DNA of 64,000 bases from Candidatus Latescibacterota bacterium (GTDB lineage Bacteria; Latescibacterota; UBA2968; UBA8231): NCBI GenBank assembly GCA_965248355.1, contig OZ252098.1, positions 1,536,001 to 1,600,000 of the forward strand. The letters run 5' to 3'. Shown here piece after piece: positions 36,001 to 57,000 of the stretch. Every line of letters starts with the position of its first letter. Within the stretch, counting starts at the first letter, position 1. The position numbers are program-made.

Positions 36001-39000
36001 CGATCATGGCCCCCATGTTCTGGTGTGCCAACACGGGTACCGTAACCCATTCCATGCTCTCATTGGTGGTGATCCCCAAGTACTGGAGGGCCCCCTCCTG
36101 CAGCTTGGCTATGAGGTTGAGCAACCAGATTCCCAGGGAGATGTCCCGGCTCAGAAAGTAGGTGAATCCGATCGTCGCAAAGCTGAGCTGAGGGGTCAGG
36201 ACAGTAGTGCGGGAGAGAAAGGGGATGGATGTGTACAGCGAGACGTCGGGTACGCTTGGATCGTATTCGTGCAGGGCGATGAGAGACCCCACGGCACAGG
36301 GAATGCTCAGGCCGATCCAGAAGGAGAGGCAACGGAACAGCGGCGGCAGCAGCTTCCCTTGCTCCCGGTCGATCATGGCCAACGATGGCTGCATCAGGGG
36401 GTACTGCAAGCGCTCCTGATTCATCCACTGCCGCCGGAGAATGACCATGACGGCGATCATCACCAGGAACAGGGCCAGCAGGAACGGGGCCCACGCGATC
36501 AGCGGGGGCAGCCACGCATCCCAGGCAATCGCCCCATGAGGGTTCCCCTCGTAAAAATCCTGGATCGCCTTCGGATCCTGTGGCACCAACCAGGGGGGGA
36601 TCTCCCTCATGAACAGGTCTCCCCACCTGTTCTCCGGCGTGGCGTAGTACTGGGCGCCGCTCAGGTACGGAATGAAGAAGGAGGTGAGCCCCATGGACGG
36701 GATGGTGGCTGCCGCCAGGGCCATGATGTAGACGAGGGTGATCTCAGAGGTGGAAAGATGCCAGGGGCGCCGCAACCACCCCATGAGCGGATTCAACACC
36801 GCCACGAGGACAAAGAGGATGAACAGGGCTATGGGAGAGGCGAAATCCTGGGCCATGCGGCTCCCGCGAATGACGTTGTCCCCGTATATCACACCCACGC
36901 CGACAAAGACACTCACCGCGGTTCCGATGAGAAATGCGCGTTTCGTGACTCTATCGGATGGCCCGATGGACATTCTGCGACTTTGTCGAGGCAGAGGCGC
37001 GCCAGGAGAGGATCAATACACGTCCTGAGCGCAGCGCGCAGCGCCGGTATCCGGAAACAGAAGGGAGAGGGCGGCCCCATGGTCCGGGTGCGCGGCGAGT
37101 CCGCCCTCCTCGAGGAGACATGGCAGGCGTCGCCCGTTGTAGATCAGGGAGCAGAGATCGCTGCCGCCGATCTCCAACCGCAGGAGTTCGCCCCTTCCGA
37201 ACTCCTGCGCATGACCATCTTCGCGAAAGCGTACTTCCACCCTGAAACCAGCCGCCTCGGCGCGCCTGTCGAGAAGAGTTCGGATGCGCTGCACGTACAG
37301 GTCGCGGTCCTGAAGGCGCACCCATATCTCCCCGTGTCCTGTCCGATGTTCGGGAGACAGAGTCTCGATCCGGGGACGCAGGGGGTGGCAGGATGGGATC
37401 GCCAGGTGAGCGGCCGGCACACCCCGGTCGCGCCAATCTCGAAGGGTGGAGCGCAGCAACCCGGCGGCGACATCCTCAGCTCCGGGCCGGCAAGCCCACT
37501 CGCTGACCGTTCCTCCGTCCAGTGTCTCGAGCACGACGACATAGGCCAGAGGCCGGTCGTGACCGGCCACGAGAACCGTCATGGGGACTGAGGTAAAGAG
37601 CTTTGGTTGCCGCTGAAGCCTGCGCTCCCAGAATGGAACCGTCCTCGACCATGAGCCGCTGACCCGGCTGTAGAGAACCTCGTAGATCTCGTTGAGGGTC
37701 TCGGCGTCCCCGGGCGTGCCCGGACGTGACTCCACGGGCGCGGGCCATTCATTGCAATAGGTGTCCGGATCGTAGGTGTCCGGATCCAGACCATCGAGAT
37801 GGAGGGTCAGGCAGGGGTTCTCGATGATTGCCTTCTTGTAGCCCAGCCGACTGTAGAAGCCGGAGCGCTCTGCCGACGTGTGCAGGTAGGAGATCGCCAA
37901 GCCATGCTGCTTCATTCGGGCGAAGGAGGCGCGCATCAAATGCGCTCCGATGCCCTGACCCCGGAACCGGACAGCCGTGCAAACCGTACCGACGAGCCCG
38001 GCCGGAACTCCTACGCCCGAGCACGACAACAGGCCGGTGCGCACTCCCATATGGCTCACCACGCGGCCATCGACCTCGGCTACCAGCAGGTGGGCCGGAT
38101 CGTACCACGGTTCCTGCTCCAGGACCTCGAGGCTCCCCGGACTTGCCCCGACCGCCTGGGGAAAGGCCGCGGCGATGATCTCCTTTGCGTCCGGATAGTC
38201 CGTTGGCACCAAACCGCGGCAGTTCACCTCACCTGCATTCACCGTGGCCCAGCGACGCATCATGAGGCCCTGATCCTGGCCCGATGCCGCCACCGGTGGG
38301 CCCGAGGGCCGGATGGGCCCGTCAACCGGACTTCCGGGGTCGAATACCGAGTCGAGGGCCGGACGCCTTCCCGGCCGCCTCCCCGGACATCGGCCTTGAA
38401 ATGGGTCCGACAGCCCCGGGCGCTTTCGAGCGGAAATCAGCCGTGACTAGACGGACGTATATACAGGAGCCGCCAGGGGTGCTGTCAAGGTCATCGTCAC
38501 CGGATGCGATCGATGGAGAGGAGATCATTTCTTCTTGACTTCTCATTGCTTGCTGCGCTACATTGACGGTCTTTCAGGTGGTACTTCTGACTTTGAAGAT
38601 GTGCCCGGGAAAAAGAGACATAAGTCCAATATCACCAGACACTAAGGAGAGAACCCATGGCTCTGGTGGACCTTGCACGAAGAATGGCAATAACAGCGGC
38701 ATCGCTGCTGATCCTCTTCGGGGTTTCAGATGCCCAGGAGGAGCGTTTCTCGCGCTACGTAGGCTCCGAGGATCTGGGCCTCAACGACATGGACAGCGGC
38801 GGCAAGCCTTCGACGGCCGCCATCAGTGGCTTGACGGACATCACGGACTATGCCTTCGACGGCTCGGACCTGACCATTCCGTTTACACTTGAGGGGACGC
38901 AAACCGGTTCAGCGACGGTGTGGCTGGTCATCTACACCTCCGGCCAGAAGCCGCCCTTGACGATTGAAGGAGAAGGGCCTCCTCCCCACATCAAGGGCAA

Positions 39001-54000: not shown

Positions 54001-57000
54001 CTTGAGGGAGTTCGACCGGGCCCGGACCTCCTTCGACCAATTGCTGCGGGACTACCCGGAGGCGCAGGCCCTGCCGGATCTCCTCTTCGGCCTCGCGGAG
54101 AGCCATTACCAGCTGGGAGACTTCGAGGCGGCCATCCACCACTACCAGCGCATTCTCGCGGAATTCCCTCGGGATGCCACGGCCGCTCGTTCGCTGTACA
54201 ACACGGCCTGGTGTCTCATCGAACTCAAGAGGCAGGACGAGGCGATGGAGGCCTTTCGCACCCTCCTCGAACGGTATCCGCGAAGTGAGTTCGCGTCCTC
54301 GGCCCAGTTCACGCTGGCCGACGATGCCTACAACCGCGGGTTCCATGAAGAGGCCATGAGGACCTACCGCCTCGTTCAGGAGCGATTCCCCGGAGATCCC
54401 CTGGCGGCCCAGGTGCCGCGCCTTCTCTCCGAGATCACCGAGGCCATCGCGTACAAGCACTACGAGCAGGCTCTCGCGTTGATGAATTCGGCCAGGACGG
54501 CCGAAGAGGAGACCCGGCGGAAGGAATACTTCGAGCAGGCCATAAGCTCGTTCCAGGAGATCAGCGCCCGCTATCCCGGCACGGAGAGCGAACTGGGTGC
54601 GCTGAGCAATATGGGAGTCTGCCTGGAAGAACTGCGGCAATGGCGCGAGGCCGTGGCGGTGTACGATCAGGTGATCGAGATGTACAATGAAAAGCGGGCG
54701 AGCAAGGAAGTCTTCCAGTTCGTCAAGGCCCACAAGGACTGGATCGTCACAACGAGGCTGTGAGTAGAGAATGAACTCCAGGCCCGATCGTTTCAGCTCT
54801 GCCAGCGACGGCATCGACCGGCGCAGATTGCTGGCCGAGACCCGGGGGCTAGTGGCCGTCGGTCTGTTGATCAGCATGGGGCTTCTGGGGGGGGCTTTCC
54901 TCTACTTCATAGCAGTGCCCAAGGAGAGGAAGGCCCCGCCGCCGCCGATCGCCGAGCTCGTCATCCGCAAACCCAGGGCCTCGAAGCCGTTCCAACTCAA
55001 GCGCCAGCGCCTGGCGCCGCGAGCCCTGATCAGAAGAGTGAGCGCCCTGAAGCCCCGCCTGGCCATGGCCGCGCCACGCCTCAGCGGTGCGTCCATGTTC
55101 GGACGGATTGAGACCTTCGACTACGCCGTCGAGACCGATGTTCAGATCAACCTCCAGACCGGCCCCGTCGAGTTCTCCGCGGCCCGGGTCACCGGTACGA
55201 AGGAGCCGGAGAAGCGCATCGCCATGCACGAGGAACTGCTCGACCTGGATGCGCTCGATACCGGGAAATACAAGGGGCTCATCATTCAGGATCCGACGGA
55301 CCGTCGCAAGGTCAAGGGGTTCGTCTACCTCGGTACGGCGTGGGCCACCGATCTGGAGCCGATCTTCGACAGCGCCGCCAAGGCGATTCCCAATCTCGTC
55401 GATGCGGTCAATGCCCTGACCGGCATCACCGCAAAGGTGGATGAGCACCTGTTCGTCGATTCCCAGGAGCTCTTTCGGACACCCTTCGTCTACATCACCG
55501 CGCAGGAAGCCTTCGAACTGACGGATCGGGAGAAGACCAACCTCGAGAAATACATGCGCCAGGGAGGGTTCGTCTTTGCCGACAACGCCAACGCCGTCGT
55601 CGAATTCAGTCAGGCCGAGGCATCCCTGCGTCAGATTTTCCGAGACGCCCTGGGCTCACAAGGTCAATTCCGGCCCATACCCAACACCCATCCCCTGTAC
55701 CACACATTCTACGATTTTGACGGCCCTCCGGTCGGATCGGAGCTGGATGTCCCCTCCGACCAGGAGCAGTGGTCCATCTCCTACCGCATCGTCGCTCAGC
55801 ACTCCTATCACCTTGAAGGCGTGTTCCTGGGTGACCGTCTCGTTGCTCTCTACTCGGACAAGGGATACGTCCACAAGTGGGCGGAGAACTACGGCAACGA
55901 GCCGCAGTTGCGCTTCGGCATCAACGTGGTCGTCTTCGCTCTGACCCAGGAAGGCTCGATCGCGCAGCAGCAGATCGACTATTTCAGTGAAGGCGGTGGA
56001 GAACAGTGAACCTGTCACGCCGTCTCCGCGGATCGCCGCATCATCGAGGCCCCGATAGAACATCCTCTGCCGAAAAGGAGTAGCCGGAATGTGGGAGATC
56101 ATAAAGAGCGGCGGCCCTCTCATGGTGCCCCTGGTCGGATGCGCCGTGTTGTCCCTCGCCTTCATCATCGAGCGCTTGTGGGTGTTCAGCCGCCTGCCCG
56201 GCCGCACCCAGGCCCAGGAGGACCTGCAACGGTTCGAGTCCGCACTCGTCCGTGGAGGTGAGGACGCCGTGGTGGAGGAGTGCAACCAGGGGAAGGGGGT
56301 GCTCAACTACGTCTTTGCCTCCCTGTTGACGCGTCACAATACCCTCATGCTGGAGCAACGGGAATTCCAGGAGACGCACGAGGAGATCATCCAGCTTTCC
56401 GAGGCCGGCGGCGGCGGGCCGATGGGGCGTTTCATCGAGATGCGGCAGGAATTGGCCGACTTGAAGGAAGAGCTCGTGATCGAGACCGAAAAGGCCTCGC
56501 GGCTGTACCTGGGAAAGCACCTGCCTGTCTTGAGGATGATAGGGAACATCAGTCCCCTGTTGGGGTTGCTGGGGACGATCCTCGGAATGATCGTTGCGTT
56601 CGAGTCCATCGCCGCGGCCGGTACCGGAGACCCGAAGGTGGTGGCCGACGGGATCTCCCAAGCCCTGGTCACGACGGCGAGCGGGTTGATCGTCGCGATC
56701 CCCACGATCGTGGCCTACGGGTACCTGGCGCGCAGGGCCGAGTTGTTCCTTGACCAGGTCGAGGTCTTCGGTCACGCCTTTTCGAGCACCCTGATCAGTG
56801 CCGGGCAGCGAAAGAAGAAGGACTAGTCCTTCATCCTGGGAGTGCAGGAGAGTCACCACGGATCCGGGAGTGGAGCGCCTCTCCCTCCACCACGCGCGAT
56901 GCGAAGCATGGCGGCCTGCATCCTCCGGCAAGCCCTCCTTCCGGCCCTGCTGCCGGCGCTCGCCGCCGCGGCGGCGGCCGGCGCCGGCAGCGCCGACTGG

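What a model noticed while it worked through the whole genome (the two positions that open the first line are those of the whole stretch)
38684..56009. Unnamed ~900-aa protein family (25 paralogues) locked to T9SS-cargo gene modules
A family of 877-1051-aa proteins with no Pfam, NCBIfam or PDB-sequence match occurs 25 times in 13 gene groups. Each group lies beside 1-3 genes for T9SS C-terminal-domain, discoidin-like proteins, often with a SurA-like PPIase or a 1083-aa TPR protein. The range given is one complete type I module (cargo c62, c63, B1, B2, B3, TPR, DUF4159). The B genes lie at 147499-150294, 155292-163668, 220771-228088, 364194-367007, 500111-508421, 554225-562901, 1578925-1587500, 1958945-1967616, 2156277-2161999, 2817891-2820533, 4404327-4407044, 4461807-4464488 and 5401712-5404423.
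Evidence so far: - A4 alignment of 20 members. - 0 Pfam families at E<=0.01 for 5 of 5; 0 NCBIfam for 3 of 3; best PDB-sequence hit E=0.29. - 13 of 13 groups have CTD genes within 4 genes upstream or 3 downstream, and 22 of 25 have a signal-like N-terminus. - 126 CTD proteins genome-wide. - The same module stands in 6 of 6 loci of families f6 and f13. - B is found in 71 of 121 genomes and cargo in 68 of 121, with nearly the same family pattern. - 423 representatives at E<=1e-30 in 1.84 billion proteins. - All named homologues are 'hypothetical protein'. - Position-specific subfamilies B1, B2 and B3. - Two PorU sortases and SprA are present.
(Added by a program. Inside this text positions count along the whole contig: contig position 1,536,001 is position 1 of the stretch shown here. 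"Call 12" and the like, gene names such as g00115 and contig names such as C1 are that model's own, and its searches are not shown. The text may have been shortened before it was handed on; [...] marks where a part breaks off. The agent that wrote the report below was given it as the finding of a first reader that could run no searches.)

Follow-up and report, generated by a model that had tools for sequence, protein, structure and literature searches.

The report
Unknown protein family tied to T9SS cargo
An unnamed family of about 900-residue exported proteins almost always sits right after genes for one special class of type IX secretion cargo in an uncultured sponge-associated bacterium and its relatives, so it is probably a new partner of those surface proteins, but its fold and job remain untested.

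Summary
B1 (42916-45609), B2 (45606-48395) and B3 (48402-51500) have no Pfam, NCBIfam or PDB-sequence match.

The link to cargo is narrower than reported. B follows one tail subclass ('Y-type', ending V-x-V-x-Y, opening FTPNGDGxND). This subclass resembles the type B T9SS sorting domain but scores below its NCBIfam cut-off.
- 28 of 29 Y-type genes lie within 8 genes of a B.
- 13 of 16 B runs directly follow one.
- In other genomes, 83 of 90 runs do.
- B and Y-type tails co-occur in 148 of 151 phylum genomes, although SprA is in 146.

In one related family, 12 of 12 loci place a PorV/PorP-like barrel between cargo and B. B is therefore an extra component, not a PorP/SprF substitute.

My best reading (0.4) is that B proteins are envelope partners holding Y-type cargo at the surface, probably in glycan capture.

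The outer-membrane barrel idea is unproven. My amphipathic-strand count, which recovers SprA and PorV, shows no enrichment in B.

Earlier scan notes hold analogous cassettes but not this family.

The parts
34339..35016 (+). 225-aa GH43/GH32-like fragment; part of the glycan-related surroundings
   Evidence: Pfam Glyco_hydro_43 32.7 bits (cut-off 32.2) and Glyco_hydro_32N 27.0 bits.
35048..36916 (-). Polytopic membrane protein with DUF6785 + DUF6784, transcribed away from the module
   Evidence: Pfam DUF6785 412 bits and DUF6784 81 bits. The genome has 26 copies, and 8 lie within about 15 kb of a B group (distances read).
38535..38564 (+). Promoter-like site upstream of c62
   Evidence: The only sigma-70-like match in 37800-57200, with 9 of 12 positions. 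Shuffles give a mean of 3.2 matches, so this is a weak lead only.
38684..40681 (+). c62: 665-aa cargo with a type A T9SS tail (ends KKVTFLK)
   Evidence: FlgD_ig 53.6 bits, Por_Secre_tail 27.8 bits, TIGR04183 32.9 bits against cut-off 23. There are five c62-type proteins in the genome, and all five are in type I modules.
40702..40732 (+). Terminator-like hairpin between c62 and c63
   Evidence: 13-bp stem with 8 G-C pairs, followed by a T run. Contigs from two RNA libraries show depth 9-44 over c62 and 0-1.8 downstream. DNA carry-over is not excluded.
40811..42919 (+). c63: 702-aa discoidin (F5/8 type C) cargo with a Y-type, type-B-like tail (ends GVVAIAY). Its stop overlaps the B1 start by 4 bases.
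   Evidence: F5_F8_type_C 43.2 bits; CHU_C 17.5 and FlgD_ig 20.1 bits, both under cut-off. It scores 109 bits on the Y-tail model. Tail alignment: A2.
42916..45609 (+). B1, 897 aa, unnamed family
   Evidence: 0 Pfam and 0 NCBIfam families and no PDB-sequence hit. The B1 clade has 100/100 support. Signal-like N-terminus and no Cys after residue 40.
45606..48395 (+). B2, 929 aa, unnamed family. Its start overlaps the B1 stop by 4 bases.
   Evidence: 0 Pfam and 0 NCBIfam families. 27% identical to B1. The B2 clade has 100/99 support.
48402..51500 (+). B3, 1032 aa, unnamed family
   Evidence: 0 Pfam and 0 NCBIfam families. 25% identical to B1. The B3 clade has 99/97 support.
51506..54763 (+). 1085-aa TPR protein with a hydrophobic N-terminus
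   Evidence: TPR models up to 201 bits and YfiO 62 bits. NCBIfam YbgF 233 bits, BamD 143 bits, PorW/SprE 92 bits (under its cut-off of 250). All 7 genome copies lie within 9 genes of a B, and 5 are adjacent.
54771..56009 (+). 412-aa protein with DUF4159 and one N-terminal hydrophobic segment
   Evidence: PF13709 106.1 bits. 7 of 10 genome copies lie beside B groups (read).
56089..56826 (+). 245-aa MotA/ExbB-family protein; a possible but not constant member of the module
   Evidence: MotA_ExbB 96.1 bits. Only 2 of 5 type I modules have ExbB next to DUF4159; the 554-kb copy also has two ExbD genes.

Best explanation
B proteins are Sec-exported envelope proteins. They act as dedicated partners of one class of T9SS cargo: proteins whose C-terminal sorting domain is a divergent relative of the type B CTD (the 'Y-type').

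Proposed mechanism:
1. The cargo crosses the outer membrane through SprA.
2. It is handed over, by a private PorV/PorP-like barrel in some lineages, to a B assembly made from the same operon.
3. The B assembly keeps the cargo at the cell surface.

Two module types exist:
- Type I: three position-specific paralogues (B1-B2-B3) work together with a long membrane-anchored TPR protein and a DUF4159 protein.
- Type II: a single B works with a SurA-like prolyl isomerase.

The cargo carries discoidin/CBM-like domains and the loci sit among glycan-related genes. The complex therefore most likely serves glycan capture at the surface.

What is shown and what is not:
- Shown: the family, its lack of known relatives, the genetic lock to Y-type cargo, and the co-distribution across genomes.
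- Inferred: export, envelope location and physical binding.
- Open: whether B is an integral barrel, and whether it also conducts solutes.
For: Own genome:
- A tail model built from 10 seeds separates three tiers: 29 proteins at >=70 bits, all ending V-x-V-x-Y/F; the 5 c62-type proteins at 54-65 bits; and about 88 ordinary type A tails at <=51 bits.
- Of the 29 Y-type genes, 25 lie within 3 genes of a B, 2 at 5 genes, 1 at 8 and 1 at 111.
- 13 of 16 B runs are directly preceded by a Y-type gene.

Other genomes, picked through B:
- Of 90 first-B-of-run cases in 80 loci, 83 have a Y-type gene end less than 600 nt upstream. 6 are at the locus edge and 1 has none.

Metagenome contigs, picked from the cargo side:
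- 14 of 28 loci with a Y-type tail hold a B (11 of the 18 loci of >=10 kb).
- 0 of 45 loci that have only other PNGDG[IV]ND tails hold a B.

Phylum sample of 151 genomes:
- B in 94, Y-type tail in 93. 92 have both and 56 have neither.
- SprA is in 146, including all of f2, f3, f4 and f8, where B was not found.
- PorP/SprF scores over its cut-off in 0 of 151.

The tail is T9SS type-B-like:
- CHU_C is listed in 19 of 25 own Y cargo and reaches >=27 bits in 7.
- Two f10 cargo score CHU_C 36.3 and 32.4.
- In f10, 12 of 12 loci read cargo -> ~320-aa PorV/PorQ/PorP-family barrel -> B. Two of these barrels score NF033709 72-73 bits and TIGR03519 30-31 bits.

The published precedent is that type B cargo needs a cognate barrel encoded directly downstream, and binds it. 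Sources: PMC12618676 (abstract and sections 4 and 10 read) and PMC9143113 (abstract read).

Other module parts are nearly exclusive to B loci: TPR-1083 7 of 7, SurA-like 6 of 7, DUF4159 7 of 10.

B1, B2 and B3 are separate clades with the same internal module topology, so the triad has been kept through whole-module duplications.

Signs of export:
- 21 of 25 have a signal-like N-terminus.
- None has a 19-residue hydrophobic stretch above 1.46 after residue 60.
- 25 of 25 have <=1 Cys, against 108 of 578 other proteins of >=600 aa.

Glycan context: F5_F8_type_C in cargo; CBM9, sulfatase, FGE-sulfatase, GlcNAc 2-epimerase, DUF4838 and a GH43/32 fragment nearby.
Against: - No binding test could be run, and the fold is unknown.
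- Adjacent genes that duplicate together will show the same linkage and co-distribution without touching each other.
- The genomes compared are kin. The presence/absence split is essentially a few family-level events.
- In f10 the cargo already has its own PorV/PorP-like barrel, so an anchor role for B is not needed by analogy with SprB-SprF.
- The link is not absolute. Three of 16 own B runs lack a directly preceding Y-type gene. One own Y-type gene lies 111 genes from any B. 7 of 18 large cargo-side metagenome loci hold no B within about 7 kb.
- Barrel signals are weak. SlpA_C reaches at most 19.3 bits against a cut-off of 35. The ESM-feature neighbour DUF6029 scores 0.89, which is a lead only, and hhalign to the genome's own DUF6029 protein gives probability 0.1.
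- A count of amphipathic 9-mers finds 39 in SprA (z 4.3) and 14 in the PorV-like barrel (z 2.2). It finds only 15 in B (z 0.7), no more than shuffled columns give.
Confidence: 0.4

Rival explanations
1. B proteins are outer-membrane channels for nutrient (glycan) import. The T9SS-delivered discoidin/CBM cargo is their surface binding lid or feeder. The module would then be a SusC/SusD-like uptake unit built from different parts. This overlaps with the best explanation on the complex, but makes transport the primary job.
For: - Glycan-related neighbours and CBM-type cargo.
- DUF6785/6784 membrane proteins beside 8 of the B groups, from 26 genome copies.
- ExbB, with or without ExbD, next to 2 of 5 type I modules.
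- Weak porin-family hits: SlpA_C in 8 of 30 alignment members and OprB in 1.
- Unchecked earlier scan notes describe a big barrel + T9SS-tailed partner + PorV-like barrel cassette in other phyla, with a TonB receptor as the big barrel. The f10 order cargo -> PorV-like -> B -> B has the same cast.
Against: - No Plug or TonB_dep_Rec match in any of 30 members at E<=5.
- By eye, no TonB-box-like start in the mature N-termini.
- ExbB/ExbD are absent from 3 of 5 type I modules and from the type II modules looked at.
- DUF6785 is a 26-copy family and 18 copies lie elsewhere.
- No enrichment of amphipathic strands.
Confidence: 0.25
2. B proteins are not integral barrels. They are large beta-rich, calcium-binding periplasmic or membrane-peripheral proteins. 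Together with the TPR protein, DUF4159 or the SurA-like isomerase, they hold, fold or assemble Y-type cargo before or after its passage.
For: - The dyad and amphipathic-strand measures place B with soluble beta-rich cargo rather than with SprA or PorV.
- A 95-residue acidic segment (B1 residues 516-610) holds 13 of the 37 invariant columns, with DxDxDG-like runs. Weak EF-hand and FG-GAP hits fall there.
- Partners with periplasmic chaperone-type domains (TPR, PPIase) sit beside B.
Against: - Three paralogues of about 900 residues per cargo is heavy for a chaperone.
- The C-termini end in short alternating hydrophobic stretches that resemble barrel end strands.
- Aromatic and Asn enrichment (Y 1.95x, F 1.5x, N 2.4x the proteome) fits outer-membrane proteins.
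Confidence: 0.17
3. B proteins form a private translocon for Y-type cargo that works beside or instead of SprA.
For: - The cassette cargo -> PorV-like barrel -> large unknown protein(s) resembles the cast of the SprA-PorV-cargo core.
- One 96%-complete genome (G015) has B and a Y-type tail but no SprA match better than 21 bits.
- SprA and B both carry acidic Asp/Asn-rich loop motifs (consensus lines).
Against: - SprA is present in 146 of 151 genomes, including nearly all with B.
- hhalign of the B profile against a 17-sequence SprA profile gives probability 2.3 and E 0.021; against the genome's own SprA it gives 0.37.
- TIGR04189 does not hit B at E<=0.1.
- There is no motor gene in most modules.
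Confidence: 0.06
4. There is no functional tie. B and Y-type cargo genes merely travel together because whole modules were duplicated and exchanged as blocks.
For: - The B1, B2 and B3 subtrees share one module topology, so blocks do duplicate whole.
- The window module has lower G+C than its flanks (0.62 against about 0.72) and lower GC3 than its paralogue, as if it were acquired as a block.
Against: - The order cargo -> B is kept between subfamilies only 25-30% identical and between families of the phylum with G+C from 0.45 to 0.69.
- Start-stop overlaps point to co-translation.
- Both are lost or kept together in 148 of 151 genomes.
Confidence: 0.05

Closest known systems
Type B CTD cargo with cognate PorP/SprF-like shuttle or anchor (F. 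johnsoniae SprB-SprF and Fjoh_3952-Fjoh_3951; P. gingivalis PG1035-PorP)
   Same: - A T9SS cargo with a non-type-A tail is followed directly by the gene of a dedicated envelope partner.
- There are many cargo/partner pairs per genome, and some cargo are 'orphans'.
- Sources: PMC12618676, PMC9143113.
- Here: 13 of 16 own runs and 83 of 90 runs elsewhere.
   Different: - B is about 900 residues, not about 300.
- B has no detectable similarity to the PorP/SprF/PorV families.
- B often comes as a triad.
- B coexists with a real PorV/PorP-like barrel in 12 of 12 f10 loci.
- The tail scores under the TIGR04131 cut-off in 25 of 25 own cargo.
- The organisms are outside the Bacteroidota.
SusC/SusD-type surface uptake complexes, and the 'TonB receptor + T9SS-tailed partner + PorV-like barrel' cassettes in earlier notes of this scan (unchecked AI notes)
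   Same: A large envelope protein is encoded with a surface carbohydrate-binding-type partner, among glycan-related genes.
   Different: - No Plug or TonB-receptor domains in B.
- No SusD.
- The partner is delivered by T9SS.
- No transport has been shown.
SlpA/OmpM-type giant outer-membrane barrels (Pfam SlpA_C, PF21620)
   Same: 10 of 50 B-family proteins give a sub-threshold SlpA_C match, always between the same parts: protein residues about 385-620 (mostly 410-494) against profile positions about 200-310.
   Different: - Scores are 10-19 bits against a cut-off of 35.
- The window's own B1-B3 give no match.
- B has no SLH or coiled-coil part.
- The resemblance covers about 80 residues only.
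SprA/Sov translocon
   Same: Both are large Sec-exported proteins of T9SS loci with acidic loop motifs.
   Different: No significant profile similarity (probability 2.3). B is less than half the size. SprA shows 39 amphipathic 9-mers (z 4.3), while B shows 15 (z 0.7).

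Membership tests
PorP/SprF family (TIGR03519) / PorV-PorQ family (NF033709) | Sequence match to the family model | tested here: not met
   0 NCBIfam families for B1-B3 at E<=0.1. hhalign of the B profile against an f10 PorV/PorP-like barrel gives probability 0.1.
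PorP/SprF family (TIGR03519) / PorV-PorQ family (NF033709) | Small (about 300-400 aa) outer-membrane barrel | tested here: not met
   B is 875-1044 aa.
PorP/SprF family (TIGR03519) / PorV-PorQ family (NF033709) | Gene directly downstream of a non-type-A CTD cargo gene | tested here: met
   13 of 16 own runs. 83 of 90 runs in 80 other loci, with 6 at a locus edge and 1 without.
PorP/SprF family (TIGR03519) / PorV-PorQ family (NF033709) | Binds the cargo's CTD | not testable with these tools
Type B T9SS sorting domain (TIGR04131 / Pfam CHU_C), for the neighbouring cargo | Score over the curated cut-off | tested here: inconclusive
   - TIGR04131: 0 of 25 own Y-type cargo reach 35 bits. 6 of 25 give 16-26 bits.
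- Two f10 cargo give 30.1 and 19.1 bits.
- CHU_C (cut-off 27): 7 of 25 own cargo and 2 of 2 f10 cargo pass.
Type B T9SS sorting domain (TIGR04131 / Pfam CHU_C), for the neighbouring cargo | Cognate PorP/SprF-like gene directly downstream | tested here: inconclusive
   Met in 12 of 12 f10 loci. Not met in the own genome, where B stands in that place and only 1 of about 12 PorV-family genes lies near a B group.
TonB-dependent receptor | Plug and TonB_dep_Rec domains | tested here: not met
   Neither family appears among the hits of 30 B-family members at E<=5.
SprA/Sov (TIGR04189) | Sequence or profile similarity | tested here: not met
   No NCBIfam hit. hhalign probability 0.37 against the own SprA and 2.3 against a 17-sequence SprA alignment.
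SlpA_C (PF21620) | Score over cut-off 35 | tested here: not met
   Best score 19.3 bits. 8 of 30 and 10 of 50 members give sub-threshold matches. The window's B1-B3 give none.
Integral outer-membrane beta-barrel (generic) | Sec signal, no inner-membrane helices, Cys-poor and aromatic-rich composition | tested here: met
   21 of 25 are signal-like. The highest 19-residue hydropathy after residue 60 is 1.46. 3 Cys in 25 proteins. Y 1.95x and F 1.5x the proteome. The same Cys poverty is seen in 108 of 578 other long proteins, mostly exported ones.
Integral outer-membrane beta-barrel (generic) | Many amphipathic membrane strands | tested here: not met
   B has 15 amphipathic 9-mers (z 0.7 against shuffled columns). 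SprA has 39 (z 4.3) and the PorV-like barrel has 14 (z 2.2). This is a crude home-made measure.
Integral outer-membrane beta-barrel (generic) | Closed barrel fold | not testable with these tools
My own coupling analysis (364 sequences, Neff 196) was too noisy.

The most novel reading that the evidence does not exclude
B1-B2-B3, the membrane-anchored 1083-residue TPR protein and the DUF4159 protein together form a previously unseen envelope machine of the Latescibacterota/Gemmatimonadota lineage. It would be a second destination for T9SS cargo, alongside the PorU-PorV-PorZ-PorQ attachment complex and the PorP/SprF anchors. It would receive a third class of sorting domain and build multi-subunit lectin-bearing surface complexes, possibly with import activity.
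Probability: 0.3. Interest if true: 0.8.

Novelty: new variant of a known kind. Interest (0 to 1): 0.6.

Why it matters
T9SS work is almost wholly on Bacteroidota. There, two routes after the translocon are known: PorV to the attachment complex for type A tails, and private PorP/SprF barrels for type B tails.

This case differs in several ways:
- The phylum carries SprA in 146 of 151 sampled genomes.
- It has no PorP/SprF over the family cut-off.
- A distinct tail subclass is wired to an unannotated family with up to 27 copies per genome, plus its own TPR, DUF4159 and SurA-like partners.

If B is the receiving or anchoring platform, it would show how T9SS cargo is sorted outside Bacteroidota. 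It would also name about 1100 clusters of 'hypothetical proteins'. The organisms are uncultured and sponge-associated, and the cargo look like lectins, so the modules may bear on host or glycan recognition.

The claim is directly testable by structure prediction and by expressing cargo-B pairs in a tractable T9SS host.

Tried and rejected
- **Complex prediction** of B1 with the c63 tail: tool not available.
- **ESM Atlas.** It holds no model of B1 or of homologue P0012. The nearest named cluster, DUF6029, scores 0.89, a lead only. hhalign of the B profile against the genome's own DUF6029 protein gives probability 0.1.
- **hhalign against other candidates.** f10 PorV-like barrel: probability 0.1. 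Own SprA: 0.37. A 17-sequence SprA profile: 2.3. All rejected as evidence of kinship.
- **Longer or fused forms:** none found (weak evidence).
- **Shorter forms:** only fragments, none with a Pfam domain.
- **Mean-field coupling analysis** on 364 sequences (Neff80 196). Top pairs fell in gap-rich columns, and hairpin ladders were no stronger than my parallel control. Inconclusive.
- **First dyad-hydrophobicity scan.** 5.6% of windows exceeded the shuffled 95th percentile. Calibration gave SprA 13.5%, cargo 6.9-9.1% and TPR 3.7%.
- **PDB-sequence searches** of c62 and c63 gave only a FlgD hit at E 0.005, or nothing.
- **tRNA and Rfam:** none in the region.
- **First cargo-side collection scan** failed for lack of a conserved stretch. 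I repeated it with a 12-sequence alignment.
- **RNA libraries.** Parts of the module without contig cover in X19 and X20 say nothing.
- **G015 and two f10 genomes.** The 1134-1208-aa frames with a 16-21-bit local SprA match are not next to B or Y-type genes.
- **Earlier scan notes.** A sequence look-up for B1 and my first word look-up returned nothing.

Full report
**What is there**

The window (G+C about 0.72) holds a 25-kb stretch of lower G+C (0.60-0.65, about 32-56.8 kb). Inside it lies a run of same-strand, tightly packed genes:
- c62, 38684-40681
- c63, 40811-42919
- B1, 42916-45609
- B2, 45606-48395
- B3, 48402-51500
- a 1085-residue TPR protein, 51506-54763
- a DUF4159 protein, 54771-56009
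- a MotA/ExbB-family protein, 56089-56826

c63/B1 and B1/B2 overlap by four bases. c62 carries a type A T9SS tail (TIGR04183 32.9 bits against cut-off 23). c63 carries a discoidin domain and a weak tail match. B1, B2 and B3 match no Pfam or NCBIfam family at E<=0.1. They match no PDB sequence, and a family profile also finds no PDB relative (best E 0.046, a designed protein).

**The family is real and large**

B1 has 51 word-indexed homologues. Every source name is 'hypothetical protein', from Latescibacterota or 'Gemmatimonadetes' MAGs, with a few probably mis-binned labels. A 30-sequence profile (A1) finds 1098 representative clusters at E<=1e-3 and 350 at E<=1e-30 among 1.84 billion proteins.

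- one read in two frames (contig 359546-362349)
- one split by a Mutator-family transposase gene (contig 2469301-2473342)

A tree of the 25 copies gives four clades:
- B1: 5 copies, support 100/100
- B2: 5 copies, 100/99
- B3: 5 copies plus an orphan near-copy, 99/97
- a 'type II' clade of 9, 100/100

The three type I subtrees share one module topology. The triad therefore arose once and whole modules were later duplicated.

**The link is to one tail subclass**

The gene just upstream of a B run ends in V-x-V-x-Y. A model built from 10 such tails sorts the proteome into three tiers:
- 29 proteins at >=70 bits, all with that ending
- the five c62-type proteins at 54-65 bits
- about 88 ordinary type A tails (ending ..RKLTLLR/K) at <=51 bits

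Of the 29, 25 lie within 3 genes of a B, two at 5 genes, one at 8 and one at 111. Reading the gene map, 13 of 16 B runs are directly preceded by such a gene. The exceptions are the orphan B3 at 147499, the split copy at 359546 (followed rather than preceded by two such genes) and 4404327 (cargo two and three genes downstream). With 29 such genes among 4416 called genes, chance gives 0.66% per neighbour.

The tail consensus (A2) opens with P.VFTPNGDG.ND and runs through WDGRDD.G..VPPG.YLYRV to G.V.VAY. From memory, FTPNGDGxND is the opening motif of the type B (CHU_C / TIGR04131) domain.

Measured scores are as follows:
- CHU_C is listed for 19 of the 25 own cargo scanned, and 7 reach the 27-bit cut-off.
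- FlgD_ig reaches its cut-off in 8 of 25.
- TIGR04131 is under its 35-bit cut-off in all 25, with six weak hits.

I therefore call this a divergent, type-B-like subclass and not a member of the type B family.

**Beyond this genome**

In 80 loci from other genomes found through B, 83 of 90 first-B-of-run cases have a Y-type gene end within 600 nt upstream. Six are at a locus edge and one has none.

From the cargo side, I picked metagenome contigs only by the motif PNGDG[IV]ND:
- 28 of 73 loci carry a Y-type tail.
- 14 of those 28 hold a B in the fetched DNA (11 of the 18 loci of >=10 kb).
- None of the 45 loci with other tails holds a B.
- Per gene end, 17 of 41 with room have a B start within 2.5 kb downstream. 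Many of the rest are arrays of several cargo genes.

Y-type 'orphans' therefore exist, as orphan type B cargo do in F. johnsoniae (PMC12618676).

**Distribution**

In a 151-genome sample of the phylum:
- B is found in 94 genomes and the Y-type tail in 93.
- 92 genomes have both and 56 have neither. The discordant ones are G003, G044 and G030.
- SprA is found in 146, including all 56 genomes of families f2, f3, f4 and f8, where B was not found.
- No genome has PorP/SprF over its cut-off; 14 have weak matches.

B and the Y-type tail are thus an accessory pair on a T9SS background. These genomes are kin, and the pattern amounts to a few family-level events.

**A complication that changes the reading**

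In family f10 (G+C about 0.45-0.48), 12 of 12 loci read Y-type cargo -> ~320-residue barrel -> B1-like -> (B2-like) -> TPR. The two barrels I scanned belong to the PorV/PorQ/PorP superfamily:
- NF033709 72-73 bits, under its cut-off of 90
- TIGR03519 30-31 bits

Their cargo pass CHU_C at 36.3 and 32.4 bits. This is the published type B arrangement, a cognate barrel encoded directly downstream, with B as an added layer. It confirms that the tail is a T9SS signal. It also argues against B being a simple replacement for PorP/SprF. The own genome has about 12 PorV-family genes, and only one lies near a B group.

**The rest of the module**

- The TPR-1083 family has 7 copies, all within 9 genes of a B.
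- The SurA-like lipoprotein of type II modules has 6 of 7 copies within 4 genes of a B.
- DUF4159 has 7 of 10 copies beside B groups.
- ExbB follows DUF4159 in only 2 of 5 type I modules.
- Neighbours include a sulfatase, FGE-sulfatase, GlcNAc 2-epimerase, CBM9 proteins, DUF4838, FG-GAP/UnbV proteins and, in the window, a GH43/32-like fragment.
- DUF6785/6784 membrane proteins have 26 copies, and 8 lie within about 15 kb of B groups.

**What B might be physically**

For export and an outer-membrane place:
- 21 of 25 have a signal-like N-terminus.
- There is no later hydrophobic helix.
- There are 3 Cys in 25 proteins.
- Asn, Tyr and Phe are enriched.
- The C-terminal ends alternate hydrophobic residues.

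Weak leads to barrels:
- SlpA_C at 10-19 bits in 10 of 50 family members, always over the same parts, but not in the window's own B1-B3.
- One OprB hit.
- The ESM-feature neighbour DUF6029 at 0.89, which hhalign does not back.

Against a large classical barrel: my count of amphipathic 9-mers gives 39 for SprA (z 4.3; SprA has 36 strands, a figure recalled and not from any call) and 14 for the PorV-like barrel (z 2.2). For B it gives 15 (z 0.7), no more than shuffled columns. A simpler dyad scan places B (5.6-8.4%) with soluble beta-rich cargo (6.9-9.1%), not with SprA (13.5%).

A conserved acidic stretch (B1 516-610) holds 13 of the 37 invariant columns and looks calcium-binding (this is inference).

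The fold could not be predicted.

**Expression hint**

Contigs of two sponge metatranscriptome libraries from one study lie on the module. Depth is 9-44 on c62, with small low-depth pieces on c63, B1, B2, B3, the TPR gene and the ExbB gene. A 13-bp-stem terminator-like hairpin sits right after c62 (40702-40732). This fits a strongly made c62 and a weaker downstream operon. However, the libraries may hold DNA, and contigs cannot rank genes.

**Verdict**

The most likely reading (0.4) is that B proteins are dedicated envelope partners that receive and hold Y-type T9SS cargo at the surface, in lectin-bearing complexes for glycan capture.

The rivals are:
- a transport channel of a SusC/D-like unit (0.25)
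- a non-barrel periplasmic assembly factor (0.17)
- a private translocon (0.06)
- mere co-travelling genes (0.05)

**Literature**

I found no paper holding both 'Latescibacter' and 'type IX secretion'. One paper holds Gemmatimonad + type IX secretion + CTD; I saw only its listing. A further search on T9SS, Fibrobacterota and Latescibacterota brought no paper on such a family (listing only). The only paper naming DUF4159 is the Pfam database paper.

Earlier notes of this scan describe analogous cassettes with TonB receptors in other phyla. They do not hold this family: a sequence look-up found nothing.

Noticed in passing
window 32000-56800: The module lies in a stretch of G+C 0.60-0.65 between flanks of about 0.72. 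Its genes have GC3 about 0.80, against 0.87-0.93 in the paralogous module at contig 1.958 Mb. Part of the dip is explained by the Asn/Tyr/Phe-rich composition of B. Acquisition as a block from a lower-G+C relative is also possible. No tRNA gene lies in the window.
   Followed up: partly
L008:7301-11342 (contig 2469301-2473342): A B gene is split into N- and C-terminal halves by a 423-aa Mutator-family transposase gene (PF00872, 124.8 bits). It still sits between a Y-type cargo gene and a 1048-aa TPR gene.
   Followed up: partly
L003:7546-10350 (contig 359546-362349): A second disrupted B copy. Profile positions 18-282 and 360-903 are read in two different frames. Unusually, two Y-type cargo genes follow it instead of preceding it.
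   Followed up: no
contig 147499-150294 and 160858-163668 (L001): The orphan B3-type gene on the minus strand is a near-copy of the B3 of the adjacent module (branch lengths 0.059 and 0.047). This is a recent inverted duplication.
   Followed up: no
whole genome; e.g. L003:738-2803, contig 2865305-2869184: A family of about 300-aa secreted proteins ends in S-W-G/A-x-I/V-K-A-x-F: 25 genes by pattern, some with weak CBM9 matches. 8 lie within 8 genes of a B. Others form tandem arrays of four. The conserved end looks like a sorting signal I could not place.
   Followed up: partly
whole genome; window 35048-36916 (-): The DUF6785+DUF6784 polytopic membrane proteins are expanded to 26 copies. 8 of them lie within about 15 kb of B groups.
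   Followed up: partly
G015 (96% complete), L200:9383-13006 (-): This genome has B and a Y-type tail but no SprA match better than 21 bits. The weak match lies in a 1208-aa frame ending ..MRATF. Similar 1134-aa frames exist in two f10 genomes. None is next to B.
   Followed up: partly
contig 233334-234194 and 909376-910236: Two PorV/PorQ-family matches with identical scores (71.7 bits), perhaps a duplicated gene. The first lies directly upstream of a 1097-aa TPR gene and near a DUF4159 gene, 5 kb from a type II B group.
   Followed up: no
contig 1932358-1935477 (-): The second full-length PorU match (543.8 bits) lies about 23 kb upstream of the 1.958-Mb type I module, beside CTD genes, a DUF4159 gene and a DUF6785 gene.
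   Followed up: no
window 56899-60706: Just after the module come two PQQ/BamB-like beta-propeller proteins and a radical SAM/HemN-like protein, at the flanks' high G+C. They are probably unrelated to the module.
   Followed up: no
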